DNA of 64,000 bases from NCBI GenBank assembly GCA_964655125.1, contig CAZZLT010000021.1:8078-72077 (forward strand), given 5' to 3'. Numbering within the stretch: the stretch's first letter is position 1; the number at the start of each line of letters is the position of its first letter. This document shows, in pieces, positions 523 to 58,921 of this stretch. Both the position numbers and the translations under genes were made by a program. Under the pieces are notes generated by a model, which did no database searches, had not been told where the DNA came from, and saw nothing but the letters and a program-made list of their open reading frames with translations. Origin of the DNA: an uncultured Desulfurococcaceae archaeon. GTDB lineage: Archaea > Thermoproteota > Thermoprotei_A > Sulfolobales > NBVN01.

Positions 523-532
523 GAGTACTACC

Positions 533-4525: not shown

Positions 4526-4528
4526 AAC

Positions 4529-8768: not shown

Positions 8769-8775
8769 TACAACT

Positions 8776-11428: not shown

Positions 11429-11452
11429 TACATCACATTCGATAATAGCTCA

Positions 11453-15263: not shown

Positions 15264-15267
15264 TTAT

Positions 15268-24543: not shown

Positions 24544-24707
24544 TAGTTGTTAGGAATTATCCTAACTATACTATTAAGAAATAACTTATACTAGGTTAGA
24601 ATTACGTTAGTCCTAATAAAGTTACTTAAGTATTATACTTTGAAAACTACTTTAGTATGTGTAAAGTTTTTAAATCTATACCTACATATATAATATCGGT
24701 GTTATGT

Positions 24708-39114: not shown

Positions 39115-39164
39115 AAGATCTTTAGCTTTATCGTATGTGTAGAGTTGATATGGTAATGCATTAG

Positions 39165-39466: not shown

Positions 39467-39711
39467 TAACCTCACTATTCCTTTTGTTAAATAATCAAAT
39501 ATTTATTACTGATCCTTACTAAGGCTCTGGAGAGTAATTCTAAAATCCATTAACCCCGTAAACTATTCTGTAAGAATGATTAGAGGATTACTAACTAGTA
39601 CTTTAGCTCCTTAACCTAATACTTTAAATCTCATTACTAACAATACTTCATTTAATGATACTACATCTACGTTAAGTACTTCTTCAAGTTTTGAAGCTAC
39701 CCTACTCAACC

Positions 39712-45821: not shown

Positions 45822-46103
45822 CTACGGGATTGCCATTAATAATACCTTATAACGAGGTATATAAATTATAATTACCGTGGATAACGTTAACACTACTTAC
45901 TGAACATACCTAAGAACATACTAATTCCTTAATTTAAGTGAGGATGGATTTCATTAGAGGAGGTAATGCTACTGAGGTGGGTTACTCACTATAACATTGG
46001 TTTAAAACATAATTAAATGTATGACTTAACACTAAGCTAAACTCACAATGTAGGACTTACAAAACATATCATTACTCTATATACTACAGCTAACATAATC
46101 TTA

Positions 46104-46811: not shown

Positions 46812-48154
46812 ATCTTAAGAACCTGAAGTAAAGCATCTCTTAAAACCTCACCTAATGTTGGGTGTGCTAATAACGTGTTAATCACTGTATCTGATGTGGA
46901 TTCTAGAGTTACAGTTATAGATGCCTCATTCACAACTTCAGAAATTCCGTAACCAACACCATGTACACCTAACACACCCCCATACTTAGAATCAACTACT
47001 ACCTTAATCATACCACTAGACATAGATGCTCTAACTAAGGCGTTAGAAGTTAGTGATTGACGTGCTATTAAGACCTCATAACCTAAACTCCTAGCTTCAT
47101 CCTCAGTTAAACCTACTGAGAATACCTCAGGGTATGTAAACGTATATCGTGGGGTTACCCTACAAGTAAACCTCATATTACCGTTAGAGACGTTCACACC
47201 AGCTACTACCCCCTGTACTATAGCTGAGTGAGCATATGTTGAGATACCAGTAACATCACCAGCAGCGTATACATTACCTACACTAGTCCTTAAGCTATCA
47301 TCAACCCATACATAACCATTACGTAACTTAACGTTAAGACCTCCTAACACGTCTAACCTTGGGTTACTTACAGATGCGTTAAACACCTCATCAACACCTA
47401 CAGTTAATACTTCATTACCCCTCATCAGACGTACTTCCTTAACCCCCTGCTTAACTACAATACCACTAACTACAGTATTGGTCATTACCTCAACACCTCT
47501 CTCAGCTAAAGCTAACATTAAGTAATTAACTACCTCCTTATCGAAATCCTTCAACACCTCAGAAGCTCCATCAACTACTATGACCTCAGAACTTAACATA
47601 CTGTAGGTACTAGCTATTGATAAACCGAAGGGGTTACAGCCAATGATTAATACCTTATTAGGTGGTTCTTTAAGGTCTATAAACTCAGTACATGGTCTAA
47701 CACCATCACCTGAACTCCACTTAAGACCTGTAGCTATTATAGCTTTCTTAAACCTTATGTAGGAATCACCTACCTTAGCAGTACTCTCATTCACTAAAAC
47801 TGCTTTATTCTTCAGAACTTCAACACCTAAGTCCTCAAGTGTCTTCCTCATAGATTCTGAAAGTACGTTAACTACATTAGTTCTTACGTAGTTGAAGACC
47901 TTCTCAGCATTCATGGATAACTTATCTACTGAAATACCTGTATCCTCCTGTGATAACTTATTAAGTAAGTCTATAGTTGATAAGTATTTTAGTAGGGTAG
48001 CTAGAGGTACACAACTCTTATTTAAGCAAGTACCCCCGATATGTTTTTCCTCAACTAATAATGTCTTAAGCCCTTTAACAGCTGTTATTAATCCAGCATA
48101 ATAACCTGCTGGACCGCCACCTACTACTAATACATCATATTCTCTACTTGACAC
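46808..48154 (-). CDS. lpdA: dihydrolipoamide dehydrogenase (E3)
   Basis: VVGGGPAGY FAD motif, redox disulfide GGTCLNKSCVP, C-terminal HPTLGE. Confidence 0.9.
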   Translation of the reverse strand: MSSREYDVLVVGGGPAGYYAGLITAVKGLKTLLVEEKHIGGTCLNKSCVPLATLLKYLSTIDLLNKLSQEDTGISVDKLSMNAEKVFNYVRTNVVNVLSESMRKTLEDLGVEVLKNKAVLVNESTAKVGDSYIRFKKAIIATGLKWSSGDGVRPCTEFIDLKEPPNKVLIIGCNPFGLSIASTYSMLSSEVIVVDGASEVLKDFDKEVVNYLMLALAERGVEVMTNTVVSGIVVKQGVKEVRLMRGNEVLTVGVDEVFNASVSNPRLDVLGGLNVKLRNGYVWVDDSLRTSVGNVYAAGDVTGISTYAHSAIVQGVVAGVNVSNGNMRFTCRVTPRYTFTYPEVFSVGLTEDEARSLGYEVLIARQSLTSNALVRASMSSGMIKVVVDSKYGGVLGVHGVGYGISEVVNEASITVTLESTSDTVINTLLAHPTLGEVLRDALLQVLKI

Positions 48155-49349
48155 TTAAGACCGCCCTTAACCTACTCTCATCCTTAATCAAGCTTATGAA
48201 TTTATCGAGGAATTGAGCTGCTGTATGCCCATCTATAACTCTATGGTCGAAGGTTAAGCTGAAGGTACATAAAGTCGCTATGTTAATCCTACCCTCCTCA
48301 ACTATAGGTTTCTGTACGAACCTACCAACACCTAATATAGCTACTTGAGGTGGGTTTATTATCGGCGTGAACGCGTCTATACCATACATACCTAAGTTAG
48401 TTATGGTGAACGTACCACCACTAACATCCTCAATACTTAACTTCCCCTCCCTAGCCTTCCTAGTAAGTTCATTACATGTAATTACTACCTCCTTCAAAGA
48501 CTTCTTATCAGCTTCCTTAACTACAGGTACTACTAATCCATGATCTATTGCGACTGCAAAACCTATGTTAATCTCATCAATGACTTTAATTGTGTTATCC
48601 TCAAGTGTTGAGTTAATTATTGGGAATTCCTTTAATACCTCAGCAACTAACTTAATCAGTATTGGTGTGTATGTCAGTCTAATCCCAACCTCCTTCTCCA
48701 CTAACGGTAGTAACTCATCCCTAATCTTAACGATATTATCAACTACCTCCTCCCTACATATAGTTACTTGAGCCATAGTCCTTAAACTCTCAGTCATCCT
48801 CTCAGCTATAGTCATCCTTAAAGATGTTAAAGGTATGACTTCCTTAACCCTCAACCCCGTCTTAGTCTTCTTCTTAACCTCCTCTACATACTTAATAACA
48901 TCCTCTTCAACTATTAACCCTCCAGGACCGGAACCCTTAATAAGACTTAAGTCAATACCTTCCTTCTCAGCTATCATCCTAGCCCTAGGTGTAGCTCTAA
49001 CTCTAGTAGGTGGTGGGGGTGGGGTAGGGACTTCAGGTACTGCCCTCTCTACAGGTTTAGTAGGTTGTGGTTGGGTGATGACTTCAGGTACTGCCTCACC
49101 TAACTCACCTATGAATGCGATCACACCACCTACAGGGACTGTAGTCCCTACAGGAGCTACTATCTTTAGGAGGTAGCCGGAGGTAGGGGCTTCAACATTA
49201 GCTGTGATCTTCTCTGTCTCAATAACTAATAACGGCTCACCCTTACTAACCCTATCACCTTCACTCTTCAACCACTTCTTAACCACGCCTTTAGTCATTG
49301 TTAAACCGAGTTTAGGCATCTTCACCTCTACAACCATGGAGTTACCCAC
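48144..49349 (-). CDS. dihydrolipoamide acyltransferase (E2)
   Basis: Lipoyl domain with VIETEKITANVEAP, a Pro-rich linker, a peripheral-subunit-binding domain (ATPRARMIAEKEGIDL), and the catalytic DHRVIDG. Confidence 0.9.
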   Translation of the reverse strand: MGNSMVVEVKMPKLGLTMTKGVVKKWLKSEGDRVSKGEPLLVIETEKITANVEAPTSGYLLKIVAPVGTTVPVGGVIAFIGELGEAVPEVITQPQPTKPVERAVPEVPTPPPPPTRVRATPRARMIAEKEGIDLSLIKGSGPGGLIVEEDVIKYVEEVKKKTKTGLRVKEVIPLTSLRMTIAERMTESLRTMAQVTICREEVVDNIVKIRDELLPLVEKEVGIRLTYTPILIKLVAEVLKEFPIINSTLEDNTIKVIDEINIGFAVAIDHGLVVPVVKEADKKSLKEVVITCNELTRKAREGKLSIEDVSGGTFTITNLGMYGIDAFTPIINPPQVAILGVGRFVQKPIVEEGRINIATLCTFSLTFDHRVIDGHTAAQFLDKFISLIKDESRLRAVLSVK

Positions 49350-50340
49350 CCACGACAGAAATACTTCTTAAAACCCTATATACGTTTATTAGTAAGGGCC
49401 CGTTACGTAGGAGTCTCACACCTACTACATCATCTTTAGTTACTTCTAACTCCCTCTCACCATCTAGAGCTACTGTATACCTATTCCGCGGGATCTCTAC
49501 TACCTCACCAATACTTATAGGTTTAAAACTCCTAACACTAACATCTCTGAATTCCCCAGGCATCACTACAGACCTAACCTTAAGACCCCCCTCACCAAAC
49601 TCTACTAAGTAACCTAAATCACTCTCAAACGATGTAGGTCTTAAGAACCCTAAAATCGATGCTAAACCTATATCTGTTGGCTCACCCTTACTGAAGACTG
49701 CGTAGGCTAGGTAATCCACATCAACTATAGCTTTAGCACCTATGTACGGAGTCTTAAGGATCGCTACATCTATAACTGCTGCATCCACTGACTTACCGTT
49801 AAGTAAGACCTCTAATGATTTAGCCTTAATTAAACAATCACTTAATACCTTACCAGTAGCTACTAGACCTGCAGCATAACCAACTAATGTTGCGTCGTAG
49901 AATGCTCCAGTCACGTTATTAGTCCCTGCAGCAACACAGACCATCGGTACATCACCTCCACAACCCTTAAACACAGCTCTTAAAGTACCGTCACCACCTA
50001 CTACAACTACAGCTTTAATACCGTCCTCCCTCATCTTCTTAGCAGCTACTATAGTATCTAAAGCTGTACCAGTACCTCTAGTCTCAACCAACTTTAAACT
50101 AGTTGAAACACGTTTAGATAAGGTAGTACATACGTCCTCACCTAAACCGTAGTTATCATGCATTATGAGTACCTCATCAACACCACCAGCATCTAAACCC
50201 ATAACCACCCTCTTACCTAACTCCACCTTAGTGAAGTTACTTAAGTAACTAGCTGATGAGACTAACCTCCTAATATCCTTACCAGCATCTGGATTTATTA
50301 TTAAACCGACTTTAACACCCATAACTAACACCGAGAACAT
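49342..50340 (-). CDS. NAD-kinase/diacylglycerol-kinase-fold protein (AcoX-like) inserted in the 2-oxoacid dehydrogenase operon
   Basis: VVVVGGDGTLRAV GGDGT motif. 8-nt overlap with the E2 start. Confidence 0.7.
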   Translation of the reverse strand: MFSVLVMGVKVGLIINPDAGKDIRRLVSSASYLSNFTKVELGKRVVMGLDAGGVDEVLIMHDNYGLGEDVCTTLSKRVSTSLKLVETRGTGTALDTIVAAKKMREDGIKAVVVVGGDGTLRAVFKGCGGDVPMVCVAAGTNNVTGAFYDATLVGYAAGLVATGKVLSDCLIKAKSLEVLLNGKSVDAAVIDVAILKTPYIGAKAIVDVDYLAYAVFSKGEPTDIGLASILGFLRPTSFESDLGYLVEFGEGGLKVRSVVMPGEFRDVSVRSFKPISIGEVVEIPRNRYTVALDGERELEVTKDDVVGVRLLRNGPLLINVYRVLRSISVVGG

Positions 50341-50373
50341 AAGTAATTAAGAGAAAAATAAGTTAGGTTTTAA

Positions 50374-51363
50374 TTAAGCCTTCCTAACGACTTCCTTAAC
50401 AGCCTTAACTACCTTCTCAGCATTAGGTAGTATCTCCTTCTCTAAGACCGGGCTAAACGGTATTGGTACTGTAGGTGTTGTAACCCTCTTTATAGGTGCG
50501 TCTAAATACCCGAAACACTCATCAGCTACTATAGCTGCAACCCAAGAAGCAAAACCACATCTATCGTAGTCTTCATCAACAACTACTAACCTACCTGTCT
50601 TCTTAACAGATTTAATAACAGCATCCTTATCAAAAGGTACTAAAGTCCTAGGATCTATAACCTCAACACTAATCCCCTCCTTCCTCAACTCATTAGCAGC
50701 TTTAAGAGCTTCATGAACCATATAAGCTACAGCAACTACAGTTACGTCACTTCCTTCCATCTTAACATCAGCCACCCCGAATGGTATTGTGTATGGCTCC
50801 TTAGGTACAGGCCCCTTCACACCGTAGAGTAGTTTATGTTCGAAGAATATCTTAGGATTATCATCTCTGATAGCAGTGATTAGTAGTCCTTTAGCATCGT
50901 ATGGTGTTGAAGGTACTACTACTTTAAGACCTGGTACATGTGCGAATATTGAGTAAAGTACTTGTGAGTGTTGAGCAGCTGCTGAGAGTCCACCACCTAT
51001 TGTAGTCCTAATCGTTACAGGTATCTTAATCTTACCTCCAAACATATAACGCATCTTAGCTGCTTGATTATATATCTGATCCATACAAACTCCGAAGAAG
51101 TCTACAAACATTAACTCAACTACAGGTCTTAAACCAGCTGCAGCGGCACCTACGGCAGCACCTATGAATCCCGTCTCAGATATTGGCGTATCTATAACTC
51201 TATCAGGACCGAACTTCTGTAGTAACCCTTTAGTAACTCCGAAGATACCTCCGTAAACACCTACATCCTCACCCATAACTACGACGTTAGGGTCTCTCTC
51301 CATCTCCTGCATTAAAGCCTCATTTAAGGCTTCTACAAATGTGATTTCCCTTACCTCACCCAT
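50374..51363 (-). CDS. 2-oxoacid/acetoin dehydrogenase E1 beta subunit
   Basis: Transketolase-like pyrimidine-binding fold, with VVMGEDVGVYGGIFGVTKGL and DTPISETGFIGAAVGAA. Confidence 0.9.
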   Translation of the reverse strand: MGEVREITFVEALNEALMQEMERDPNVVVMGEDVGVYGGIFGVTKGLLQKFGPDRVIDTPISETGFIGAAVGAAAAGLRPVVELMFVDFFGVCMDQIYNQAAKMRYMFGGKIKIPVTIRTTIGGGLSAAAQHSQVLYSIFAHVPGLKVVVPSTPYDAKGLLITAIRDDNPKIFFEHKLLYGVKGPVPKEPYTIPFGVADVKMEGSDVTVVAVAYMVHEALKAANELRKEGISVEVIDPRTLVPFDKDAVIKSVKKTGRLVVVDEDYDRCGFASWVAAIVADECFGYLDAPIKRVTTPTVPIPFSPVLEKEILPNAEKVVKAVKEVVRKA

Positions 51364-51372
51364 AAGACCACC

Positions 51373-52392
51373 TCAGTAGTAAGGATCTGTGAATACATCT
51401 GTATACGCCTCACTAGGTTCTGGGTAGGGACTCCTCTCAGCAAAGTCTACAGCTTCTTCAACCTCCTTAATAGCCTTCTTACGTATATCCTCAAGTAATT
51501 CCTCAGTAGCTATACCGTCCCTAATCAACCTCTGCTTAAACAGTAGTATCGGGTCACGCTTCTTCCACTCCTCAATCTCCTCAACACTCCTATAAACCAT
51601 AGGATCACCTTCGAAATGCCCGTAGAACCTGTATGTCTTACAGTCAAGTAGTGACGGTCCCTCACCCCTCCTAGCACGTTCTACAGCTGCTTTAGCAGCT
51701 TCATAAACAGCTAGTACGTCCTGACCATCAACAGTAACACTCGGGATACCGAAACCTACAGCTCTCTCAGCTACAGACCTAGCTGTTGAGACCCTAGGCT
51801 GTAATTTAGATGGTGTTAAACTCCTTAACGATATAGCGTATTGATTATCCTCAACAACAAATATCACCGGTAGCTTCCATACAGCAGCTAGGTTAAGTGA
51901 TTCAAGCATAGCACCTTGGTTTTGAGCACCATCACCGGCGAAACACACAACTACGTTATCAGTACCTTTATACTTTAAAGCTAATGCAGCACCTATAGCT
52001 AGAGGACCTCCAGCACCTACTATACCGTTAGCACCTAACATACCTACCTCAAAATCAGCAATATGCATAGAACCTCCCTTACCTCTACAAGTACCAGTCT
52101 TCCTACCGAAGAGTTCAGCCATCATACCCTTAACATCAACACCCATAGCGATACAGTGGCCGTGACCCCTATGAGTACTAGTAATGTAATCACCTTTCTT
52201 CAAATTAGATATAACACCTACGGCTACAGCCTCCTCACCAGCGTATAGATGTACGAATCCGGGGATCCTACCCTGAGCAAATAGTTCGTGAACTCTATCC
52301 TCAAACGCTCTAATTAATACCATCTTATAATACATATCTAATAATTTCTCGGGAGGAAGCAAAACACATTCCCAATAAATAATTATTAACAC
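51373..52392 (-). CDS. 2-oxoacid/acetoin dehydrogenase E1 alpha subunit (TPP-binding)
   Basis: GFVHLYAGEEA and the GDGAQNQG...EDNQYAIS TPP motif. The real start is probably the in-frame TTG near 52362 rather than 52392. Confidence 0.9.
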   Translation of the reverse strand: MLIIIYWECVLLPPEKLLDMYYKMVLIRAFEDRVHELFAQGRIPGFVHLYAGEEAVAVGVISNLKKGDYITSTHRGHGHCIAMGVDVKGMMAELFGRKTGTCRGKGGSMHIADFEVGMLGANGIVGAGGPLAIGAALALKYKGTDNVVVCFAGDGAQNQGAMLESLNLAAVWKLPVIFVVEDNQYAISLRSLTPSKLQPRVSTARSVAERAVGFGIPSVTVDGQDVLAVYEAAKAAVERARRGEGPSLLDCKTYRFYGHFEGDPMVYRSVEEIEEWKKRDPILLFKQRLIRDGIATEELLEDIRKKAIKEVEEAVDFAERSPYPEPSEAYTDVFTDPYY

Positions 52393-52442
52393 ATTTATAA
52401 ATTATCATTACTGTCTACTGCTTAAGATGTTATTTAATGATA

Positions 52443-53849
52443 TTATAATGTTAAGTAGGTCTTCAATATCTTATCATAATAATTCTCACGACACTCCACA
52501 CATACTTCGAAGGGTAACCTAGAATATGGTTGTCCACCACCCATTAAGCAACCGTTAGGACATATATATGTGACCATAGCACCTGCCCTTATAATACCTT
52601 TCCTAACAGCTTCTAGAACTCCTCTTAATTCGTAAGGACCTACAGCTCTTAAATACCCGTAAATACTTGGTTTGAATATGTGGTCAGGGTCTGTAGGTTC
52701 TAACTCGGTGATATCTGATGTTTTAAGTATGGTCTGTACTTCCCTTGCTGTTAATACGTAGTCCCCGTACACCTTCCTAGAAATACATTGAGTTATTAGG
52801 ACTACCCTATACGGTATCCGTGTAGCTGGTGGTTGAGTTAAATACTTCCTAAGGTCTGGGTAGAACTGAGTTATGTATTTATACTCTGCGTAACTCATAG
52901 GGACTATACTTAAATCTGTAGATGGTCTTACCTCAGCAAGTGGTGTCCATAGAACTACCTTATCAAAGCCTAACCTCCTGATAGCTGTGATCAACTTACC
53001 TGGATGTACCTCTTCAGATTCAGCTAATGCTGCCAGTGCTTCGTACTCTAAATAAGCTACTAACTTCTCACCCCTCCTAAGCATATCCTGAATTAACTGT
53101 GTAGTACTTACGTGGTTTATAGCACCTACTGGGCAATACGCCGTACATAACCCGCATGAGATGCATGGGGTGTTATCTAACGGTTCTTGAAATGGTGTTG
53201 AGACAGCAATATCTATACCCCTATTTATGATACCTAAAGCATTCACACCTAAGCTACTACACACACTAACACACCTACCGCATACGATACATTTCTCACC
53301 ATCTAAGTTCAGCAACTTACCATTAACATTAACTACTGATGTGCGGCAGAAGTCAAACCTCCTCTCACCCTGCCTAAAGAACTTACCCTCAACTAATTTC
53401 TTAATAAGTGTTAAGAACTCAACATTATTTATAGGACAACCCCTAAGCCAGTAATCAACTTTAACGTAATTACTTATTGGTAATACCATAACTAATTTAC
53501 TTGTAGGTGCGTTAGTAAGAGTCTTAACAACATCTTCTTTTAAATCCTTCATAAGTGCTGGGATACCGCCTAAGAAACTACAAGATCCTAGAGCTACTAA
53601 TACCTTAGACCTAGACCTAAGCTCAACTAACTTCCTAACCTCTTTCTCAGAAGTTACTGAACCTTCAATAAACACTACATCATACTCCTCCTTCTCACCT
53701 ACATAACCAAGTAATGGTTCGTAAGCTATCGTAACGTTATACTTCTCCAGTAGTTCTAGTAATGCATCACCTAAGTTTAAAATCTCATGTCTACAACCAT
53801 CACAACCACTGAAACTGTATATACCTACTACTAACTTATTACTGGTCAT
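52443..53849 (-). CDS. chimeric hydrogenase subunit: [NiFe] small subunit + 2x[4Fe-4S] ferredoxin + degenerate [FeFe]-hydrogenase H-domain-like module
   Basis: SGCDGC, GSCSFLGG and RGCP form the small-subunit proximal cluster. CIVCGRCVSVCS and CISCGLCTAYCP are ferredoxin motifs. Then RRLGFDKV, PMSYAEYKYITQFYPDL, VVLITQCISRK, DYVLTAREV and TYICPNGCLMGGGQP are collinear with [FeFe] H-domain motifs. Confidence 0.8.
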   Translation of the reverse strand: MTSNKLVVGIYSFSGCDGCRHEILNLGDALLELLEKYNVTIAYEPLLGYVGEKEEYDVVFIEGSVTSEKEVRKLVELRSRSKVLVALGSCSFLGGIPALMKDLKEDVVKTLTNAPTSKLVMVLPISNYVKVDYWLRGCPINNVEFLTLIKKLVEGKFFRQGERRFDFCRTSVVNVNGKLLNLDGEKCIVCGRCVSVCSSLGVNALGIINRGIDIAVSTPFQEPLDNTPCISCGLCTAYCPVGAINHVSTTQLIQDMLRRGEKLVAYLEYEALAALAESEEVHPGKLITAIRRLGFDKVVLWTPLAEVRPSTDLSIVPMSYAEYKYITQFYPDLRKYLTQPPATRIPYRVVLITQCISRKVYGDYVLTAREVQTILKTSDITELEPTDPDHIFKPSIYGYLRAVGPYELRGVLEAVRKGIIRAGAMVTYICPNGCLMGGGQPYSRLPFEVCVECRENYYDKILKTYLTL

Positions 53850-53855
53850 AAACTA

Positions 53856-55124
53856 TCATCTCCTAACCTCTAGATGGACAGCGCATACGAGACATGGGTC
53901 ATAAGCTCTAACTAAAGCCCCTACCTTAGCTTCAACCTCTGTCAGACTCACTCCCTCCTCCAATAAATTCTTACTTAATGACTTAGTAGTTACTTCAATA
54001 TGTTTTGAGAACATGACTGTAGGTGTTATTATGTTAGCATATGTTATAACTCCCTCATCATTTAATCTGTAATGATGTATTAGTAAACCTCTAGGAGCTT
54101 CTATAACTCCGACGCCTTCGCCAGCCCTGACCTTAACATCAGTACGTATGTTTAAGTCCTTCTCCTTCAAACCACCTAATATCTCTTTAGAACTAACTAT
54201 ACAGTACAGAAGTTCTACAGCTTTAGCTTTAAGATTACTGAAGGGATTCGTAAGCTCTCCCCTCACATCACTCACAACATCTGAAATACCTGATAACCTC
54301 TCACTAAAAGCTAGTAGTCTAGCTCTAGGACCTACAAAGAATGTCTTACCCCTATATAGGCAGTACTTAGATGTTGAGTACTCACTAATACCTTCACTTA
54401 TATAGTTTAAGTACTCAGACTTTCTAAATCTAACACCATCACTACCTACTACATAATCACTCATCGAGAGGTACCCGGTAGGTGAGTCTAAGACTACGTA
54501 ATGTGGTTCTGGATCCTCCAGCTTCGGTAGGTTTAAATCTACGATATATCTGATTAATTCCTGAGCAACTTTCTCAGCTTTATCTAAAGTCTTCATAGTC
54601 TTCTCCAACACCTCCCTTGTTAAGTTCTTAGTAAATCCGCCTACACTATATGTATTCGGATTAACTATCCTACCAGCTAGGAGTTTCGTTGCTTGGAGAC
54701 ATAAGGTATTTAATATCATAGCCGACTTAACTAACTCAGGCTTCGACAACATTAACTCATTTAGGTTCCTACTGTTGAGATAATCAAGTATTGCTAAGAA
54801 GTATAGATGTACTACTGTATTCTGAGCTATTTGAATCTTATTCATAACTTCCTTAAGCATTATAACATCCTCACTAACCTCTACCTTCAGAGCATCCTCA
54901 ACAGCACTTACTGAGGCTAGGAAGTGAGCGACACTACATGCACCACAGATCCTAGATACTATATAGGGGACTACAGTGAACTTCTTACCAATAATCACGT
55001 GTTCGAAGAATCTAAGATCATCCATAACTACGAATTTAGTCCTTACATCCTTATCACGTAGGTCTACCTGAACTTCTAAATGCCCGAATACCCTATCTAC
55101 CTTACTCTGAATACTTAAACTCAT
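53856..55124 (-). CDS. [NiFe]-hydrogenase large subunit (group 3-like, cytosolic)
   Basis: N-terminal RICGACSVAH and C-terminal DPCLVCAVH followed by a 5-residue tail LEVRR. 422 aa. Confidence 0.9.
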   Translation of the reverse strand: MSLSIQSKVDRVFGHLEVQVDLRDKDVRTKFVVMDDLRFFEHVIIGKKFTVVPYIVSRICGACSVAHFLASVSAVEDALKVEVSEDVIMLKEVMNKIQIAQNTVVHLYFLAILDYLNSRNLNELMLSKPELVKSAMILNTLCLQATKLLAGRIVNPNTYSVGGFTKNLTREVLEKTMKTLDKAEKVAQELIRYIVDLNLPKLEDPEPHYVVLDSPTGYLSMSDYVVGSDGVRFRKSEYLNYISEGISEYSTSKYCLYRGKTFFVGPRARLLAFSERLSGISDVVSDVRGELTNPFSNLKAKAVELLYCIVSSKEILGGLKEKDLNIRTDVKVRAGEGVGVIEAPRGLLIHHYRLNDEGVITYANIITPTVMFSKHIEVTTKSLSKNLLEEGVSLTEVEAKVGALVRAYDPCLVCAVHLEVRR

Positions 55125-55789
55125 GTCTCATCACCTGACTTAAACTTCCTAAACAACTCGCTGATGATACCTACTGTAGGTAGGGAACTCCAAAAGAGTT
55201 CACCAAGTCTTAGAATATCCTTCATATCTATACCGTACTTAACATACAGCTTAACCCCCTCCTCCAACACATCATACCTACTTACAGGACCTCTACAACC
55301 TATACATGGGGAACGTTCATTAGTACATACAGCATTACACCCAGCTATAGTTATAGGTCCTAAACACGGTACACCCTTAGCAAGCAAACACTCACTACCA
55401 TATAAACTACATTCCGAACATATAGGTATTCCCTCAACACCGTAATCCTTCGAAAGTTTTAGTAATTGACAGTAACCTCCCTTCATACTACATGACTGAC
55501 ACTTAATCTTATGAGACGCTAGTATTAACTCAATTATAGCTCTACGGTATTTAAGAACCCTCTCACTATCAGTAAATACTTTAAGTCCTTCAGCTACTGG
55601 GTAAGCACATGCTGGGACTAACCTACCACCACTTACCTCAACTATACAGACTCTACATGTAGCTTCATTAAAGATCCCTTTAAGGTAACATAATGTAGGT
55701 ACTTCATACCCTGCCTTAACTATAGCGTTAAGCAATGTTGACTCAGCATCTACATCTACTTCCTTACCATTCACGAATACCTTAACCAT
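55121..55789 (-). CDS. HoxU / NuoG-N-terminal / HydA-N-terminal-like 2Fe-2S + 4Fe-4S subunit
   Basis: VFVNGKEV...PTLCY...CRVCIVEV (2Fe-2S), HKIKCQSCSMKGGYCQL (His-ligated 4Fe-4S motif), plus further Cys clusters. Confidence 0.85.
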   Translation of the reverse strand: MVKVFVNGKEVDVDAESTLLNAIVKAGYEVPTLCYLKGIFNEATCRVCIVEVSGGRLVPACAYPVAEGLKVFTDSERVLKYRRAIIELILASHKIKCQSCSMKGGYCQLLKLSKDYGVEGIPICSECSLYGSECLLAKGVPCLGPITIAGCNAVCTNERSPCIGCRGPVSRYDVLEEGVKLYVKYGIDMKDILRLGELFWSSLPTVGIISELFRKFKSGDET

Positions 55790-55793
55790 CTAA

Positions 55794-57749
55794 TCACCTC
55801 TTAACTACTGCCCCCTGCGGACAGGTTATGAAGCATTGAGAACACCTAATACATCTAGATTTATCTATCATGTACGGCTTACCCCTCTCACCACTAACAG
55901 CATTAGTAGGACATACCTTAGCACATAACCCACAACCAACACATTTAGTAGGATCTACCCAGTACTCAACTAATCTTGCACAAACCCCTGCAGGACACCT
56001 CTTCTCTCTTATATGAGCTATATACTCATCTCTAAAGTACCTTAACGTGGATTTTACTGGGTTAGGTGCTGTACCACCTAAAGCACATAAACTACTACCT
56101 ACTATAGCATCACTTAACTCAGTAAGTATCTCTAAGTCTTCCTCACTACCCCTACCCTCAGTAATATTATTTAATATGTCGTAGAGTATCTTCATACCTA
56201 TACGGCATGGAAAGCACTTACCGCAGGATTCAGCTAGGGTGAAGCTAGTGAAGAACTTAGCTACATCAACCATACAGTTCTTATCATCTATTACTACAAC
56301 TCCTCCTGAACCCATGATAGCCCCAGCACTCTGTAAAGTCTCGTAATCAACTGGAGTATCCAGCATATCTGAGGGGACACAACCACCGCTAGGGCCGCCG
56401 ACCTGTACCGCCTTAACATTCCTCCCTTCTGGGGGACCGCCTGCTAGGTCATAAACTAACTTCTTAAGTGTTATACCTATAGGTACTTCATAAGCACCAG
56501 TACGTCTTACAGAACCTGTAATACAGAACATCTTAGTACCTTTACTCTTCTCAGTCCCATACTTAACGAACTCATCAACACCTACTTGAAATATTGTTGC
56601 TACATGTGCTACTGTCTCAACATTGTTTATAACTGTAGGTTTACCCCATAAACCTTTAGTTGCTGGGTATGGAGGCCTCTGCCTAGGTCTAGTACGTCCT
56701 TCAATAGCTGCTATTAATGCTGTTTCCTCACCACAGACAAACGCACCAGCACTTAATATAACCTCTATATCGAAGTTAAAACCGCTACCTAAGATATTCC
56801 TACCTAATAACCCGTACTTCCTAGCCTCCTCAACAGCTTTTGATAATCTCTCAGCCATTAAAGGCTTCTCAGCCCTAACGAAGATATAGCCTTTAGAAGC
56901 ACCTATAGCGTAAGCACCTATTATCATACCCTCAACAATTCTGTAGGGGTCTGCCTCAGCTAATAACCTATTCATGAACGCTCCAGGATCTCCTTCATCA
57001 GCATTAACTATGAAGTACTTAACATCACTTACTTGTGATTGAGCTATATCCCATTTAATCCATGTAGAGAACCCAGCACCTCCACGTCCTCTAAGACCTG
57101 ACCTCTTAACAATCTCGATAACAGTCTTAGGGGTAGTGTTTAATGCTCTCTCAAGTCCTTTAAAACCACCGAAAGCTATGTACTCCTCAATAGATTCCGG
57201 ATTAACTACACCGCAATTCCTAGAAACAAACCTTACTTGATTAGACCAAGGAGTTAGTTCCTCAAGTAATGGTGCCTTAGGAGTAGGTAGTGTTAATCCT
57301 CTAGACCTAATTGCAAATGCTCTAGATAGGTCGTTATTTAAGTACTCTCTAATTATTTTAGGTATGTCTTCAGGCTTAACATTAGCGTATATTACTGATG
57401 GGAAGTCCTTCCTAGAAATCTCTAACCACGGATCTATGTAGCAGAGACCTATACAACCTGTAATTCCGATATCTATGTTTAAACCGCTTGACTTAACCTC
57501 CTTAACAACTACATCATATACTTCCCTAGCTCCAGCAGCTAAAGTACAACTAGCTATCGGTACTTTAATCTTTAACCCGTACCTCCCATACTTAATCTCA
57601 TCAATCCTCCTCTCCCTCTTAACCCTACACTCAGGACTCTCATGACATAGAGGACCTTCAGTCCTACACCTAACATAATGTTTACATGGGTATTCCGGTG
57701 TATGCCAACACCTACTACAACACTTATCCATTAAAGTCCACGTACTCAT
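55794..57749 (-). CDS. NuoF/HoxF/HydB-like NAD(P)H-binding flavoprotein subunit with N-terminal Cys-rich extension and C-terminal 2x[4Fe-4S]
   Basis: GRGGAGFSTWIKW (FMN), NADEGDPGAF, ESCGKCFPCRIG (N3 cluster), and C-terminal CVGCGLCAKVCP and CIRCSQCFITCP. Confidence 0.9.
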   Translation of the reverse strand: MSTWTLMDKCCSRCWHTPEYPCKHYVRCRTEGPLCHESPECRVKRERRIDEIKYGRYGLKIKVPIASCTLAAGAREVYDVVVKEVKSSGLNIDIGITGCIGLCYIDPWLEISRKDFPSVIYANVKPEDIPKIIREYLNNDLSRAFAIRSRGLTLPTPKAPLLEELTPWSNQVRFVSRNCGVVNPESIEEYIAFGGFKGLERALNTTPKTVIEIVKRSGLRGRGGAGFSTWIKWDIAQSQVSDVKYFIVNADEGDPGAFMNRLLAEADPYRIVEGMIIGAYAIGASKGYIFVRAEKPLMAERLSKAVEEARKYGLLGRNILGSGFNFDIEVILSAGAFVCGEETALIAAIEGRTRPRQRPPYPATKGLWGKPTVINNVETVAHVATIFQVGVDEFVKYGTEKSKGTKMFCITGSVRRTGAYEVPIGITLKKLVYDLAGGPPEGRNVKAVQVGGPSGGCVPSDMLDTPVDYETLQSAGAIMGSGGVVVIDDKNCMVDVAKFFTSFTLAESCGKCFPCRIGMKILYDILNNITEGRGSEEDLEILTELSDAIVGSSLCALGGTAPNPVKSTLRYFRDEYIAHIREKRCPAGVCARLVEYWVDPTKCVGCGLCAKVCPTNAVSGERGKPYMIDKSRCIRCSQCFITCPQGAVVKR

Positions 57750-57751
57750 AC

Positions 57752-58267
57752 TTAAACACCTGATTTCCTCTTACTGGAGGTGAGACCCCTATACTTTAAA
57801 GCTAATTTCCTAGCTTCTTGTACATTGACGTACCCATGCAGGTACCTTTCACTACCATCCCTACTAACAACCATGATCACTGGTGCTAATGAACAACAAC
57901 CAAAGCATCTAGCCCTCTCAACACTAACTAAACCATCAGGAGATGTAGTACCTCCCTTAATACCTAAAGCATCTCTTAAAACCTTATAATTATCTTGATT
58001 ACCTTTTAAATGACATGCCGTACCCATACAGACTAAAAATATGTAGTACCCCGGGGGTTCGAGCTTGTATTGATGGTAGAAAGTAGCTACGTTAATTATA
58101 TCTGATAGGGGTATCCTCATAATGTTTGAGAGTTTCTCAAGAGCTTCCCGAGGTAGGTACCCATAAACTGACTGTATCTCCTGAAGTATCCTCATAAGAT
58201 ATTGCCTACTACTATACCTACCAAGTATATCTGATAAAACATTATCTACGTTACTTACCGTGGGCAT
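57752..58267 (-). CDS. NuoE/HoxE/HydC-like thioredoxin-fold 2Fe-2S subunit
   Basis: VCMGTACHLKG and RCFGCCSLAP supply the four 2Fe-2S cysteines. Confidence 0.9.
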   Translation of the reverse strand: MPTVSNVDNVLSDILGRYSSRQYLMRILQEIQSVYGYLPREALEKLSNIMRIPLSDIINVATFYHQYKLEPPGYYIFLVCMGTACHLKGNQDNYKVLRDALGIKGGTTSPDGLVSVERARCFGCCSLAPVIMVVSRDGSERYLHGYVNVQEARKLALKYRGLTSSKRKSGV

Positions 58268-58324
58268 GTAACCACCCTTAAGGTAATCATACTTAGCCTT
58301 AAGCTTATCATCAAGAGGTATTTG

Positions 58325-58347
58325 AAGAAAGCTTTAAAAGCTTTCTT
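58325..58347. promoter_or_regulatory. perfect 23-bp palindrome containing a TTTAAAA/TTTTAAA box, upstream of the hydrogenase operon
   Basis: AAGAAAGCTTT-A-AAAGCTTTCTT, with 11-nt arms read directly. It lies 58-80 nt upstream of the ATG at 58267, which is itself preceded by GGGTGG. Confidence 0.4.
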
Positions 58348-58420
58348 ACGATATCACCGTTATAAATCTCGATTAGAATAGTCATGAAAATATAATAAAT
58401 CTTTATTTTAAGTATACTAC

Positions 58421-58921
58421 TCATTCCATATTCTCTAAAATTGCGTTAACAGCTATTCTAGCAGCTGTTTTAACAACCTCACTACACTTATCAATAGCTC
58501 CACTACTGATGAACTCGTTAAGTTCATTAGGATCTCTTAAGTTATAGTACCTACCGAATAACCTTATATGTATATCCCTACATCTAACACTTCCGAAGGA
58601 CTCTTTAAACTCATCAAATACTTTATAACTAACCTCCATAGCCTTCTTATAACCTTTAGATTCTGTTGTAGGTTCTAACCTATCACGTCCGAATACTAAG
58701 CTAACAGCCATTAAAGCACCTAGTAAAGCACCGCAGACCTCACCACCCCTAGCTACACCCCCGGCTAACGCTGAAGCAGCTTTAAATACATTACCATCAC
58801 TTAAGTTAAGGACATCCTGAACAGCTTTTAAAGTCATTTGAGAACATCCATGGTATTTAAGGTCTAACTCCTTAGCTAGAGACTCAACCCTACTTATCAA
58901 TAACTCCTTATCTAGACGCAT
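58421..58921 (-). CDS. C_GCAxxG_C_C family putative redox-active protein
   Basis: GGEVCGALLGALMAV core motif plus additional conserved Cys residues (CSQM, RCRD, KCSE). Confidence 0.75.
   Translation of the reverse strand: MRLDKELLISRVESLAKELDLKYHGCSQMTLKAVQDVLNLSDGNVFKAASALAGGVARGGEVCGALLGALMAVSLVFGRDRLEPTTESKGYKKAMEVSYKVFDEFKESFGSVRCRDIHIRLFGRYYNLRDPNELNEFISSGAIDKCSEVVKTAARIAVNAILENME

What the first reader, a model, noticed from the sequence alone, without database searches (positions are those of the whole stretch)
52443..58267. Five-gene operon looks like a HydABC-type flavin module with a [NiFe] catalytic pair grafted in
The gene order on the minus strand is NuoE-like (2Fe-2S), NuoF-like (FMN/NAD(P)H, N3 cluster, two extra C-terminal 4Fe-4S), a 222-aa 2Fe-2S plus His-ligated 4Fe-4S protein equivalent to the N-terminus of HydA/NuoG, the [NiFe] large subunit, and the chimeric small subunit. 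Gaps or overlaps are at most 6 nt (4-nt overlap at 55121-55124). The 222-aa protein together with the ferredoxin and H-like part of the chimera rebuilds the domain order of a trimeric bifurcating [FeFe] hydrogenase HydA, split in two with a [NiFe] small-subunit module in between. The [NiFe] site ligands are intact (RICGACSVAH, DPCLVCAVH plus a 5-residue LEVRR tail). No hyp maturation genes, endopeptidase or hydEFG lie in this 64 kb. A NAD(P)H- and possibly ferredoxin-coupled (confurcating) H2-evolving enzyme is plausible, since PFOR is also encoded here.
Basis: partly seen in the sequence, partly recalled or inferred. Interest (0 to 1): 0.75.

Follow-up and report, generated by a model that had tools for sequence, protein, structure and literature searches.

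The report
Hybrid [NiFe]/[FeFe]-type bifurcating hydrogenase operon
This is a real five-gene operon for an archaeal 'hybrid' hydrogenase, in which nickel-iron hydrogenase parts are fused to the body of an iron-only hydrogenase and joined to an NADH/ferredoxin flavin module; this kind of enzyme was described in 2024, so it is a further example rather than a discovery.

Summary
Five tightly packed minus-strand genes (52443-58267) encode NuoE-like HydC, NuoF-like HydB, a 222-aa conduit protein, a [NiFe] large subunit with intact ligands, and a 468-aa fusion. The fusion joins a [NiFe] small-subunit N-domain, a 2x[4Fe-4S] ferredoxin domain and an [FeFe]-hydrogenase H-domain.

However, the architecture matches the 'group F [FeFe] / group 3f [NiFe] hybrid hydrogenase' of Greening et al. 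2024 (Cell, PMC11216029), which is reported from Thermoproteia among other classes.

New details found here:
- The 222-aa protein also carries the C-terminal half of the small subunit, so HydA and the small subunit have swapped halves.
- HydB has the signature residues of bifurcating Bfu enzymes.
- The window belongs to a large subclade in which both cysteines of the H-cluster L1 motif are gone (Met-Ser). Three cluster cysteines, the GGGQP motif and one serine remain invariant.
- No hyp or hydEFG genes lie in the window.

Most likely function: NADH plus reduced ferredoxin drive H2 evolution (or the reverse) at the [NiFe] site. The H-like domain probably carries only an Fe-S cluster.

It is a new member of a known kind, of moderate interest.

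The parts
57752..58267 (-). HydC/BfuC: NuoE-like thioredoxin-fold [2Fe-2S] subunit (171 aa)
   Evidence: Pfam 2Fe-2S_thioredx, E 3.8e-37. NCBIfam HoxE and NuoE models hit, but below their cut-offs. A Cx4C...Cx3C pattern (VCMGTAC...RCFGCC) is visible in the translation.
55794..57749 (-). HydB/BfuB: NuoF-like FMN/NAD(H) subunit (651 aa). It has an N-terminal CCxxC prefix, a thioredoxin-like N-domain, the NuoF core and a C-terminal 2x[4Fe-4S] domain.
   Evidence: Pfam and NCBIfam hits. Full-length phmmer matches to bifurcating BfuB/HydB/NfnB chains, E 1e-188 to 1e-205, against about 1e-117 or weaker for non-bifurcating NuoF and 5e-72 for HoxF. The B2-cluster ligands C492, T530, H579, C585 and C590 and the motif DPGAFM align to A. 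mobile C438, C476, H525, C531, C536 and A202/M204 (PMC9304861).
55430..55789 (-). HydD N-terminal half (residues 1-120): the HydA/NuoG-type [2Fe-2S] and His-ligated [4Fe-4S] domains
   Evidence: Pfam Fer2_4 and NADH-G_4Fe-4S_3. Aligns to A. woodii HydA1 residues 7-130 (E 7e-25), TmHydA 2-119 and TkHydA1 3-124.
55121..55429 (-). HydD C-terminal half (residues 121-222, plus stop codon): the C-terminal medial/distal-cluster part of a group 3 [NiFe] small subunit, with 8 Cys
   Evidence: NCBIfam sulfhydrogenase delta models match residues 84-204 to profile positions 119-249 (E 6e-15 and 1e-14). Aligns to Pf SH1 delta residues 161-241, E 1.4e-14.
53856..55124 (-). HyhL: group 3 [NiFe] hydrogenase large subunit (422 aa) with all four Cys ligands and a 5-residue tail after the C-terminal His
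   Evidence: Pfam NiFeSe_Hases, E 6e-35. PDB matches: Pf SH1 alpha 1.7e-51, MvhA 5e-46, A. mobile HydL 5e-38, Hox 5e-32. Motifs RICGACSVAH and DPCLVCAVH.
53382..53849 (-). Fusion protein residues 1-156: [NiFe] small-subunit N-domain carrying the proximal [4Fe-4S] (C16, C19, C90, C138)
   Evidence: Pfam Oxidored_q6, E 6.6e-23. Aligns to SH1 delta, MvhG and VhuG. C16, C90 and C138 are invariant in 56 of 56 family members and C19 in 55 of 56.
53100..53333 (-). Fusion protein residues 173-250: HydA-type 2x[4Fe-4S] ferredoxin domain
   Evidence: Fer4 dicluster Pfam hits. Aligns to HydA1 from residue 134 onward. All eight Cys are invariant.
52443..53099 (-). Fusion protein residues 251-468 (plus stop codon): a shortened [FeFe]-hydrogenase H-domain. 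L2 Cys355 and L3 Cys430/Cys434-GGGQP are retained. L1 is Met318-Ser319 in place of Cys-Cys.
   Evidence: Pfam Fe_hyd_lg_C. hhalign probability 100. Foldseek matches to CpI and HydA1, E about 1e-17. Residue mapping. Invariant residues.
58268..58420 (-). Putative promoter and leader upstream of hydC: TATA-like TTTATAA (58366-58360) and TTTTAAAG (58339-58332), plus a GGGTGGT Shine-Dalgarno-like motif (58277-58271) before the ATG at 58267
   Evidence: Read directly from the sequence. This is inference only; no transcript data were available.

Best explanation
The operon encodes a cytoplasmic, five-subunit, flavin-based electron-bifurcating/confurcating hydrogenase. It is of the hybrid type described as group F [FeFe] / group 3f [NiFe].

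HydB (FMN, NAD(H) site, B1-B5 clusters) and HydC ([2Fe-2S]) form the Bfu core. This core merges or splits electron pairs between NAD(H) and ferredoxin.

HydA and the [NiFe] small subunit have exchanged halves:
- HydD = the HydA N-terminus plus the small-subunit C-terminus (four clusters).
- The 468-aa protein = the small-subunit N-domain (proximal cluster) plus the HydA ferredoxin domain plus the H-domain.

Electrons probably run from the [NiFe] site to the proximal cluster, then the medial/distal clusters on HydD, then the HydD His-[4Fe-4S] and [2Fe-2S] clusters, then HydB B1 and FMN.

In vivo the enzyme most likely re-oxidises NADH together with reduced ferredoxin, evolving H2 (NADH + 2 Fd_red + 3 H+ -> NAD+ + 2 Fd_ox + 2 H2). 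NADH could come from, for example, the adjacent 2-oxoacid dehydrogenase complex, and reduced ferredoxin from PFOR. The reaction is reversible.

I take the [NiFe] site to be the working H2 catalyst. In this subclade the H-like domain has no L1 cysteine. It most likely holds only a (Ser,Cys3)-bound Fe-S cluster at a side branch, like cluster A5 of the A. mobile NiFe-HydA, rather than a complete H-cluster.

Shown: gene content, domain homologies and conserved ligands. Inferred: complex formation, electron path, direction of the reaction and the cofactor of the H-like domain.
For: Architecture:
- ORFs and spacing; domains; PDB homologies of all five proteins.
- These match the published description: a HyhS-HydA fusion plus HyhL, HydB, HydC and a four-cluster HydD, in 21 genomes including Thermoproteia.
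- The same five-gene order recurs in a relative whose fusion protein is 72% identical, and in Bathyarchaeia, Ignisphaera and Asgard contigs.

Bifurcation:
- HydB matches bifurcating BfuB chains over its full length.
- It has the B2 ligand set Cys/Thr/His/Cys/Cys and the DPGAFM motif. Schut et al. report these as conserved in Bfu enzymes and not found in their non-bifurcating homologues.
- The C-terminal 2x[4Fe-4S] domain, the proposed ferredoxin site, is present.

[NiFe] site is functional:
- The four Cys motifs are intact and conserved in 117-119 of 120 homologues.
- HycI sits next to the Bathyarchaeal operon and HypD/HypC/HypF lie near the Asgard one.

H-like domain:
- hhalign maps Met318/Ser319 onto CpI Cys299/Cys300.
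- No Cys occurs at either position in the roughly 65 sequences of the x-S clade sampled here. That clade is a single group in a rough NJ tree.
- In CrHydA1, changing this ligand Cys to Ser, Asp or Ala abolished stable cubane binding, [2Fe] insertion and activity.
- A. mobile shows that a bifurcating NiFe enzyme can keep a HydA whose H-cluster is replaced by a plain Fe-S cluster.
- No hydEFG genes are in the window or in the five related loci inspected.

Context:
- PFOR lies at 26922-29811, a rubrerythrin at 24657-25262, and the 2-oxoacid dehydrogenase cluster directly downstream. That adjacency is conserved in the relative whose fusion protein is 72% identical.
Against: - The H-like domain is not decaying. 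Mean pairwise identity is 0.37, against 0.45 for the small-subunit domain. Model confidence there is mostly above 90. Cys355, Cys430, Cys434, Ser319, Glu270 and the GGGQ motif are invariant or nearly so. This suggests a retained cofactor, possibly more than a relay cluster.
- Ser at the Cys300 position is natural. It occurs in about 20% of [FeFe] hydrogenases, in most A3-type BfuA proteins and in the solved A. woodii HydA1. Ser319 might therefore ligate the cubane.
- One group F fusion protein (Th1) made H2 after artificial maturation. Most archaea with active [FeFe] enzymes also lack HydEFG.
- No experiment or multimer model was run here. Complex formation and the electron path rest on homology and on the published AlphaFold model of a different member, whose HydB has a GltA domain that is absent here.
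- Co-transcription is untested.
Confidence: 0.7

Rival explanations
1. This is a true dual-site hybrid. Both the [NiFe] centre and a complete H-cluster in the fused H-domain turn over H2. The H-cluster would be matured by an unknown archaeal pathway. The complex would act as a 'redox valve', as proposed for group F/3f enzymes.
For: - The published group F protein Th1 produced H2 after [2Fe]adt loading.
- The bridging Cys434, Cys430, Cys355 and the GGGQP motif are invariant.
- Ser at the fourth ligand position is natural in the solved A. woodii HydA1 and in most A3-type enzymes.
- The domain is well conserved and confidently folded.
Against: - The window clade has no Cys at either L1 position.
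- The Cys299 proton relay is Met, or a variable residue in relatives.
- CpI Met353, Met497, Ala230 and Ser232 are replaced here by Thr, Tyr, Glu and Glu.
- CrHydA1 with Ser at the L1 ligand position loses the cubane and takes up no [2Fe] subcluster.
- No hydEFG genes lie nearby in any locus inspected.
- Th1 and Th2 come from Thermoplasmata.
Confidence: 0.2
2. This is an ordinary non-bifurcating NAD(P)-linked soluble [NiFe] hydrogenase of the Hox (3d) or sulfhydrogenase (3b) type, with some accessory Fe-S domains added.
For: - The best NCBIfam and PDB hits of the large subunit are sulfhydrogenase alpha subunits.
- HoxE and HoxU models hit HydC and HydD.
- Public annotations call the fusion 'F420 hydrogenase gamma' or 'sulfhydrogenase delta'.
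Against: - All these hits are far below the curated cut-offs: 217 against 700, 116 against 224 and 102 against 333 bits.
- No 3b beta or gamma subunit genes are present.
- HydB carries the B2 ligand set, the DPGAFM motif and the C-terminal dicluster domain, which non-bifurcating HoxF and NuoF lack.
- The H-domain homology is unambiguous.
Confidence: 0.05
3. The H-like domain has been re-purposed for chemistry other than H2 turnover. It would use a cubane plus a carboxylate-lined pocket (invariant Glu270 and Ser319, near-invariant Glu268 and Glu322), while the [NiFe] site handles H2. Examples would be a second substrate or a sensing/regulatory cluster.
For: - A distinct set of invariant polar residues replaces the hydrophobic [2Fe] pocket residues of CpI.
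- The published paper itself raises the possibility that one module acts on a substrate other than H2.
Against: - Glu268 and Glu270 are shared with fusion proteins that keep the L1 Cys (P0239, P0054). The Trp-Cys class has Asp only at position 268. These residues are therefore not specific to the Cys-less clade.
- No candidate substrate genes sit in the operon.
- There is no structural or biochemical evidence.
Confidence: 0.05

Closest known systems
Group F [FeFe] / group 3f [NiFe] hybrid hydrogenase complexes of archaea (Greening et al. 2024, Cell 187:3357; PMC11216029)
   Same: - The defining fusion is the same: an N-terminal group 3 [NiFe] small-subunit domain and a C-terminal HydA H-domain.
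- The four contiguous partners are the same: HyhL, HydB, HydC and the four-cluster HydD.
- It occurs in Thermoproteia/Thermoproteota, Bathyarchaeia and Asgard archaea.
- HydEFG genes are absent.
- It is predicted to be bifurcating/confurcating.
   Different: - The modelled reference (Thermoplasmatota UBA147) has all H-cluster Cys ligands and a HydB with a GltA domain.
- Here L1 is Met-Ser with no Cys.
- Here HydB has no GltA domain. Instead it has a bacterial-type C-terminal dicluster domain and an N-terminal CCxxC prefix.
- Whether the published set includes this Cys-less subclade could not be checked, because the supplements are not held.
Acetomicrobium mobile NiFe-HydABCSL, a Type 3 NiFe-Bfu (PDB 7T2R; Feng et al. 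2022, PMC8880783)
   Same: - A five-subunit bifurcating [NiFe] hydrogenase built on a HydABC module.
- HydB matches at E 1e-196, with the same B2 ligands.
- The small subunit part next to HydL carries only the proximal cluster.
- The HydA-derived C-terminal domain carries an Fe-S cluster instead of the H-cluster. This is my preferred model for the H-like domain here.
   Different: - In A. mobile, HydA is one 692-aa chain and HydS a separate 179-aa protein. Here HydA is split and each half is fused to half of a three-cluster small subunit.
- The L2 and L3 motifs are retained here.
- The large subunit here is closer to 3b and 3c enzymes than to A. mobile HydL.
Bacterial trimeric bifurcating [FeFe] hydrogenases HydABC (T. 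maritima 7P5H, T. kivui 8A6T, A. woodii 7Q4V)
   Same: - HydB and HydC are homologous (E about 1e-188 to 1e-194 for HydB).
- HydD together with the fusion protein rebuilds the HydA domain order.
- The H-domain fold is the same.
   Different: - The bacterial enzymes have no [NiFe] module.
- The H-domain here is about 215 aa, against about 350 aa in the bacterial enzymes.
- It lacks the invariant first Cys of the TSC(C/S)P motif, which is present in 69 of 69 bacterial hits.
Group 3b sulfhydrogenase (Pyrococcus furiosus SH1, alpha-beta-gamma-delta)
   Same: - The best sequence matches for the large subunit are SH1/SH2 alpha (1.7e-51).
- Both halves of the small subunit match SH1 delta.
   Different: - Scores are far below the equivalog cut-offs.
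- There are no beta or gamma subunits here.
- The diaphorase here is NuoEF/Bfu-type.
- The delta subunit is split between two chimeric proteins.
Group 3d NAD-linked Hox hydrogenase (HoxEFUYH; PDB 5XF9)
   Same: It has the same five functional roles: NuoE-, NuoF- and NuoG-N-terminus-like subunits plus a small and a large subunit.
   Different: - The gene order and fusions differ.
- HoxF lacks the B2-B5 clusters.
- The Hox large subunit is a weaker match (5e-32).
- Hox enzymes have no H-domain.

Membership tests
Group F [FeFe] / 3f [NiFe] hybrid hydrogenase (Greening 2024) | One polypeptide with an N-terminal group 3 [NiFe] small-subunit domain fused to a C-terminal [FeFe] H-domain | tested here: met
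   Oxidored_q6 at residues 16-151 plus Fe_hyd_lg_C. Matches to SH1 delta and HydA1 on the same chain. hhalign probability 100 to bacterial HydA. Foldseek matches to CpI and HydA1.
Group F [FeFe] / 3f [NiFe] hybrid hydrogenase (Greening 2024) | Contiguous genes for HyhL, HydB, HydC and a four-cluster conduit HydD | tested here: met
   HydD has [2Fe-2S], a His-ligated [4Fe-4S] and 8 further Cys in a segment like the small-subunit C-terminus. The same order is seen.
Group F [FeFe] / 3f [NiFe] hybrid hydrogenase (Greening 2024) | Conserved cysteine ligands of the H-cluster (CpI C300, C355, C499, C503) | tested here: not met
   Three of the four are Cys (C355, C430, C434). The C300 position is Ser319 and the neighbouring C299 position is Met318. 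Ser at this position occurs naturally elsewhere, so cluster binding is not excluded.
Group F [FeFe] / 3f [NiFe] hybrid hydrogenase (Greening 2024) | Phylogenetic placement with the group F HydA and 3f small-subunit reference sequences | tested here: inconclusive
   In a rough NJ tree the window nests inside the fusion-protein family, sister to members with Cys-Cys or Cys-Ser at L1 and apart from a Trp-Cys class. No labelled group F or G reference sequences were available.
Group F [FeFe] / 3f [NiFe] hybrid hydrogenase (Greening 2024) | H2 production by the fusion protein after [2Fe]adt maturation | not testable with these tools
   This needs an experiment. It has been reported only for the Thermoplasmata proteins Th1 and Th2.
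Bfu (BfuABC/HydABC) electron-bifurcating enzyme family (Schut 2022) | BfuB with a NuoF core plus a C-terminal 2x[4Fe-4S] domain and an N-terminal thioredoxin-like domain; BfuC with [2Fe-2S] | tested here: met
   Pfam domains. Full-length alignments to 9BOV_B, 9N5U_B, 7T2R_B, 7Q4V_B, 8A6T_B and 7P5H_B.
Bfu (BfuABC/HydABC) electron-bifurcating enzyme family (Schut 2022) | B2 [2Fe-2S] ligands, including the His that is absent from non-bifurcating homologues (A. mobile C438, C476/Thr, H525, C531, C536) | tested here: met
   C492, T530, H579, C585 and C590 align to these positions. The criterion comes from PMC9304861.
Bfu (BfuABC/HydABC) electron-bifurcating enzyme family (Schut 2022) | Bfu-specific residues in the FMN/NADH pocket (A. 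mobile A202, M204) | tested here: met
   The window has GDPGAFMNR, aligned to A. mobile GDPGAFMDR. The third residue cited in the paper, F182, could not be located by my count.
Bfu (BfuABC/HydABC) electron-bifurcating enzyme family (Schut 2022) | Tightly coupled NAD(H)/ferredoxin/H2 bifurcation activity | not testable with these tools
   Needs an enzyme assay.
A. mobile-type NiFe-HydABCSL | An intact single-chain HydA without H-cluster motifs, plus a separate one-cluster HydS | tested here: not met
   Here HydA is split across two genes, each fused to half of a small subunit. The L2 and L3 motifs are retained.
Group 3b sulfhydrogenase | Equivalog-level alpha and delta subunits plus beta/gamma (FAD/NADPH) subunits | tested here: not met
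   Alpha models score 217 and 193 bits against cut-offs of 700 and 880. Delta models score 85 and 70 bits against 500 and 460. No beta or gamma genes are in the operon.
Group 3d Hox hydrogenase | HoxEFUYH equivalogs, with a HoxF lacking the extra B clusters | tested here: not met
   HoxE scores 116 bits against 224 and HoxU 102 against 333. HoxF (5XF9_A) is the weakest of the listed matches, at 5e-72. The extra clusters are present here.

The most novel reading that the evidence does not exclude
A single, ancient and widespread subclade of the fusion proteins has lost both L1 cysteines. It includes this window and at least about 55 clusters at 90% identity, from Sulfolobales/Desulfurococcaceae-like, Ignisphaera, Zestosphaera, Bathyarchaeia and Asgard MAGs. 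It still strictly conserves Ser319, Cys355, Cys430, Cys434, GGGQP and a set of glutamates (Glu270 invariant, Glu268 and Glu322 nearly so). The most novel reading is that this pocket holds a cofactor that is neither a canonical H-cluster nor a plain relay cubane. One example would be a naturally Ser-ligated cubane bridged by Cys434 to a different, HydEFG-independent metal site. That would make it a natural intermediate between an [FeFe] hydrogenase and an Fe-S relay domain, or a new catalytic site.
Probability: 0.1. Interest if true: 0.85.

Novelty: new member of a known kind. Interest (0 to 1): 0.4.

Why it matters
Hybrid [NiFe]/[FeFe] hydrogenases link the two major, evolutionarily unrelated H2 enzymes. 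So far they are known only from metagenomes and lysate assays.

This window adds three things:
- It is a complete, well-assembled example from an uncultured Sulfolobales-type archaeon. It has a clean Bfu signature and a conserved position next to an NADH-producing 2-oxoacid dehydrogenase cluster, which suggests a concrete physiological role in disposing of NADH and reduced ferredoxin as H2.
- It shows that the two chimeric proteins are reciprocal halves of HydA and the small subunit. One insertion of a circularly permuted small-subunit/large-subunit cassette into hydA would explain this.
- It shows that most retrievable family members lack any L1 cysteine. This bears directly on the open question raised in the 2024 paper: why one complex should carry two 'redundant' hydrogenase modules. 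In this clade it may carry only one.

Public annotation still labels these proteins '4Fe-4S binding protein' or 'F420 hydrogenase gamma'.

Tried and rejected
- Filing the enzyme under group 3b or 3d was rejected. NCBIfam and PDB hits are all far below the curated cut-offs, and the partner subunits are wrong.
- I first read the missing L1 cysteines as proof that the H-domain is dead. I softened this after three findings. TSCSP (Ser at the ligand position) is the majority form among the bacterial hits, 46 against 23. It occurs in the solved A. woodii HydA1. It is known in about 20% of sequences.
- Full-text searches for 'TSCSP' gave only one marginally relevant paper.
- The supplementary tables of the Cell paper, which hold the group F/G sequences and taxa, are not held. 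Direct comparison with Th1, Th2 and UBA147 was therefore impossible.
Only 4 fusion loci were recovered.
- tRNA and Rfam scans of the window found nothing.
- I treated Glu268 and Glu270 as possible markers of a remodelled pocket. This was rejected as clade-specific evidence: both glutamates also occur in members that keep the L1 Cys, and the Trp-Cys class has Asp at 268.
- No residue-level 3D check of Ser319 against the three Cys was possible, because model coordinates are not exposed.

Full report
**1. Observation**

- 57752-58267 (171 aa)
- 55794-57749 (651 aa)
- 55121-55789 (222 aa)
- 53856-55124 (422 aa)
- 52443-53849 (468 aa)

They are separated by 2, 4, -4 and 6 nt. The next gene upstream, a C_GCAxxG_C_C protein, lies 153 nt away. 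That spacer holds TATA-like boxes and a GGGTGGT ribosome-binding motif before the hydC ATG. Downstream, 50 nt with its own TTTATAAA box precede a 2-oxoacid dehydrogenase E1-alpha gene.

Pfam and NCBIfam give the following:
- 171 aa: a NuoE-type [2Fe-2S] protein.
- 651 aa: a NuoF-type protein with a C-terminal dicluster domain and an N-terminal 'CCxxC NuoF prefix'.
- 222 aa: a [2Fe-2S] plus His-[4Fe-4S] protein.
- 422 aa: a [NiFe] large subunit.
- 468 aa: a protein combining Oxidored_q6, a 2x[4Fe-4S] ferredoxin domain and the iron-only hydrogenase large-subunit C-terminal domain.

**2. The chimera is real**

- phmmer against PDB sequences hits T. kivui HydA1 (E 3.7e-24) through residues 174-299 and 408-446. 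It hits P. furiosus SH1 delta (E 2e-20) through residues 5-209.
- A profile of 52 family members aligns to a profile of 30 bacterial HydA proteins with hhalign probability 100, E 6.7e-52, over 308 columns.
- An AlphaFold2 model built on the family alignment has mean pLDDT 86, and mostly above 90 in the H-like part.
- Foldseek against the PDB returns T. kivui HydA1, CpI and T. maritima HydA at E 1e-18 to 1e-16.

**3. A reciprocal swap**

- Residues 1-123 of the 222-aa protein align to the first 124-130 residues of HydA from A. woodii, T. maritima and T. kivui.
- Its residues 121-199 align to residues 161-241 of SH1 delta. That is the medial/distal-cluster part of a group 3 small subunit.
- The 468-aa protein has the complementary pieces: the small-subunit N-domain with the proximal cluster, and HydA from about residue 134 onward.
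- HydA and the small subunit have therefore each been cut at a domain boundary and joined crosswise, with the large-subunit gene between the two chimeric genes.
- A single in-frame insertion into hydA of a segment running from mid-hyhS through hyhL to mid-hyhS (as from a tandem copy) would produce exactly this order. This is my inference.
- Cysteine counts give four clusters on HydD. They give four cluster sites on the fusion protein: the proximal cluster, two ferredoxin-type clusters and the H-domain site.

**4. Already described**

Greening et al. 2024 (Cell; PMC11216029) defined group F [FeFe] hydrogenases by exactly this HyhS-HydA fusion. The fusion is contiguous with HyhL, HydB, HydC and a four-cluster 'HydD'. 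[quoted passage not shown]

Their further results:
- They modelled a bifurcating/confurcating complex.
- One Thermoplasmata fusion protein makes H2 after artificial maturation.
- Nearly all archaeal carriers lack HydEFG.
- They regard the physiological role as unclear.

**5. Distribution and source**

- The exact window protein occurs on at least 23 metagenome contigs.
- It clusters with NCBI MAG proteins named 'Sulfolobales archaeon ... 4Fe-4S binding protein', and with IMG proteins called 'F420-reducing hydrogenase gamma subunit'.
- About 60 clusters (at 90% identity) of 428-506-aa fusion proteins were retrieved. Where named, the names are Sulfolobales, Desulfurococcaceae, Ignisphaera, Zestosphaera, Bathyarchaeia and Asgard.
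- An exhaustive HMM search adds a 476-859-aa class.
- The five-gene order is conserved in a relative whose fusion protein is 72% identical. It is also conserved in Bathyarchaeia (with HycI adjacent), Ignisphaera and an Asgard contig (with HypD, HypC and HypF about 4 kb away).

**6. The flavin module is of the bifurcating kind**

- HydB aligns end to end with BfuB-type chains at E 1e-188 to 1e-205. These are a Bfu formate dehydrogenase, NfnB, A. mobile NiFe-HydB, and the HydB subunits of A. woodii, T. kivui and T. maritima. Non-bifurcating NuoF scores about 1e-117 or weaker, and HoxF 5e-72.
- In the alignment to A. mobile HydB, the B2-cluster ligands C438, C476, H525, C531 and C536 correspond to C492, T530, H579, C585 and C590. 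The pocket motif is GDPGAFM.
- Schut et al. report that the His is missing from non-bifurcating homologues and that Thr replaces C476 in two-thirds of BfuB sequences. They also report A202 and M204 among pocket residues conserved in Bfu enzymes and not found in non-bifurcating ones.
- Unlike the published UBA147 model, this HydB has no GltA domain.

**7. The [NiFe] module**

- The large subunit has RICGACSVAH and DPCLVCAVH-LEVRR.
- These motifs are present in 119 and 117 of 120 homologues. Tails after the His run from 0 to 14 residues.
- The best solved relatives are Pf SH1 alpha (1.7e-51), MvhA (5e-46), A. mobile HydL (5e-38) and Hox (5e-32).
- All NCBIfam equivalog scores are far below cut-off.
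It then falls to 32-36% for ordinary 'sulfhydrogenase alpha' proteins.
- The large subunit is therefore a group 3 enzyme, nearest to 3b but not inside it. This agrees with the published 3f proposal.

**8. The H-like domain in detail**

CpI numbering was verified directly: TSC299C300P, M353-P-C355, K358.

Mapping from MAFFT and hhalign:

| Window residue | CpI position |
|---|---|
| Met318 | C299 |
| Ser319 | C300 |
| Thr353-Gln-Cys355 | M353-P-C355 |
| Arg358-Lys359 | K358-K359 |
| Tyr428 | M497 |
| Cys430, Cys434 | C499, C503 (followed by GGGQP) |
| Glu268, Glu270 | A230, S232 |
| Glu322 | W303 |

Conservation in the family:
- Cys355, Cys430, Cys434, Ser319 and Glu270 are invariant.
- Glu268, Glu322 and Thr353 are nearly invariant.

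The fusion family falls into four L1 classes:
- Trp-Cys: the larger proteins.
- Cys-Cys: one cluster.
- Cys-Ser: two Bathyarchaeal clusters.
- x-Ser: all the rest, including the window.

In a rough NJ tree the x-Ser proteins form one clade, sister to the Cys-Cys and Cys-Ser members.

What is known about these positions:
- C299 belongs to the proton-transfer pathway. This is established knowledge, and the CpI variants C299A/D, E279, E282, S319 and R286 appear among the PDB titles.
- C300 is a cubane ligand. In CrHydA1 this is C115, with C114 as the neighbouring residue.
- In CrHydA1, C115S, C115D and C115A lose the cubane, take up no [2Fe] subcluster and are inactive.
- Yet Ser is natural at that position in about 20% of sequences. 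The authors suggest that the neighbouring Cys might substitute as ligand.
- Here, 46 of 69 bacterial hits are TSCSP, as is the solved A. woodii HydA1. The published P1 motif is xTSCxPxW.
- The window clade is thus unique in having neither cysteine.

The domain is not decaying: mean pairwise identity is 0.37, against 0.45 for the small-subunit domain.

A precedent exists for a HydA-derived domain that carries only an Fe-S cluster in a bifurcating [NiFe] enzyme. That is cluster A5 of A. mobile NiFe-HydA.

**9. Context**

- The window has no hyp, hycI or hydEFG genes.
- It has PFOR gamma, delta, alpha and beta genes at 26922-29811 and a rubrerythrin.
- Immediately downstream of the hydrogenase lie E1-alpha, E1-beta, an NAD-kinase-like gene, E2, E3 and a lipoate ligase.
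- This adjacency is conserved in the relative whose fusion protein is 72% identical. It is absent from the more distant relatives.

**10. Conclusion**

The system belongs to a kind published in 2024.
- The best-supported mechanism is a Bfu-type confurcating/bifurcating hydrogenase whose H2 chemistry runs at the [NiFe] site.
- In this subclade the H-like domain most likely keeps a (Ser,Cys3) Fe-S cluster rather than a full H-cluster. I put this at about 0.55-0.6, against about 0.2 for a functional H-cluster.
- The points beyond the published description are the Cys-less clade, the explicit reciprocal-swap view, the Bfu ligand check and the link to the 2-oxoacid dehydrogenase cluster. These are incremental.

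Noticed in passing
window 46104-52392 (minus strand): A complete 2-oxoacid dehydrogenase cluster starts 50 nt downstream of the hydrogenase operon. It comprises E1-alpha, E1-beta, an NAD-kinase/DAG-kinase-like gene inserted between E1-beta and E2, then E2, E3 and lipoate-protein ligase. The adjacency is conserved in the relative whose fusion protein is 72% identical (GCA_038742065.1), but not in the Ignisphaera, Bathyarchaeia or Asgard relatives. It is an NADH-producing complex next to an NADH-consuming hydrogenase, in an organism that also has PFOR.
   Followed up: partly
window 57597-57749 (HydB residues 1-51): HydB begins with a Cys-rich 'CCxxC NuoF prefix' domain (NCBIfam NF040902, 74.8 bits against a cut-off of 45). 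It has 7 Cys in 41 residues. The solved bacterial HydB chains lack it, and the 608-aa Ignisphaera HydB may lack it too. Its cofactor and role are unknown. Some metagenome gene calls start HydB 6 codons later.
   Followed up: no
window 58421-58921 (minus strand): A C_GCAxxG_C_C 'putative redox-active protein' lies directly upstream of hydC. It is also present in the relative whose fusion protein is 72% identical, but not in the more distant operons. It may be an accessory or redox partner.
   Followed up: no
window 13203-15759 (plus strand): A molybdopterin oxidoreductase catalytic subunit (686 aa, with an N-terminal Fe4S4 domain) is followed by a 163-aa 4Fe-4S dicluster subunit. The substrate is unknown.
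   Followed up: no
window 38782-39475 (minus strand): A small nucleotidyltransferase-like ORF (110 aa) lies next to two overlapping short ORFs (72 and 46 aa). By eye these resemble a HEPN domain split by a frameshift, so this may be a degraded HEPN/MNT toxin-antitoxin pair. No family search was run on them.
   Followed up: no
window 1-12000 and 46000-58000: There is strong strand-linked GC skew (about -0.3 to -0.4) wherever genes lie on the minus strand, and positive skew where they lie on the plus strand. This is consistent with purine loading of the coding strand rather than a replication signal.
   Followed up: no
window 44669-45403, and beyond about 63400 (seen in L001-L003): Two DUF2208 membrane-protein paralogues flank an approximately 18-kb block. 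The block holds the 2-oxoacid dehydrogenase cluster, the hydrogenase operon and a TrkH gene.
   Followed up: no
protein hits P0001, P0502-P0512; P0242-P0253: Public annotations of the fusion protein miss the H-domain. They read '4Fe-4S binding protein', 'F420-reducing hydrogenase gamma subunit' or 'sulfhydrogenase delta'. Separately, a class of 476-859-aa fusion proteins has L1 = S-W-C-P: the ligand Cys is kept and the relay is Trp. This class may correspond to the experimentally active Thermoplasmata enzymes.
   Followed up: partly
locus L009 (Hadarchaeota MAG CAZKND010000029.1, match 9001-10422): A Hadarchaeota contig encodes a relative that is 27% identical across residues 1-440 of the fusion protein. 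Hadarchaeota is not among the classes named for group F in the main text of the 2024 paper.
   Followed up: no
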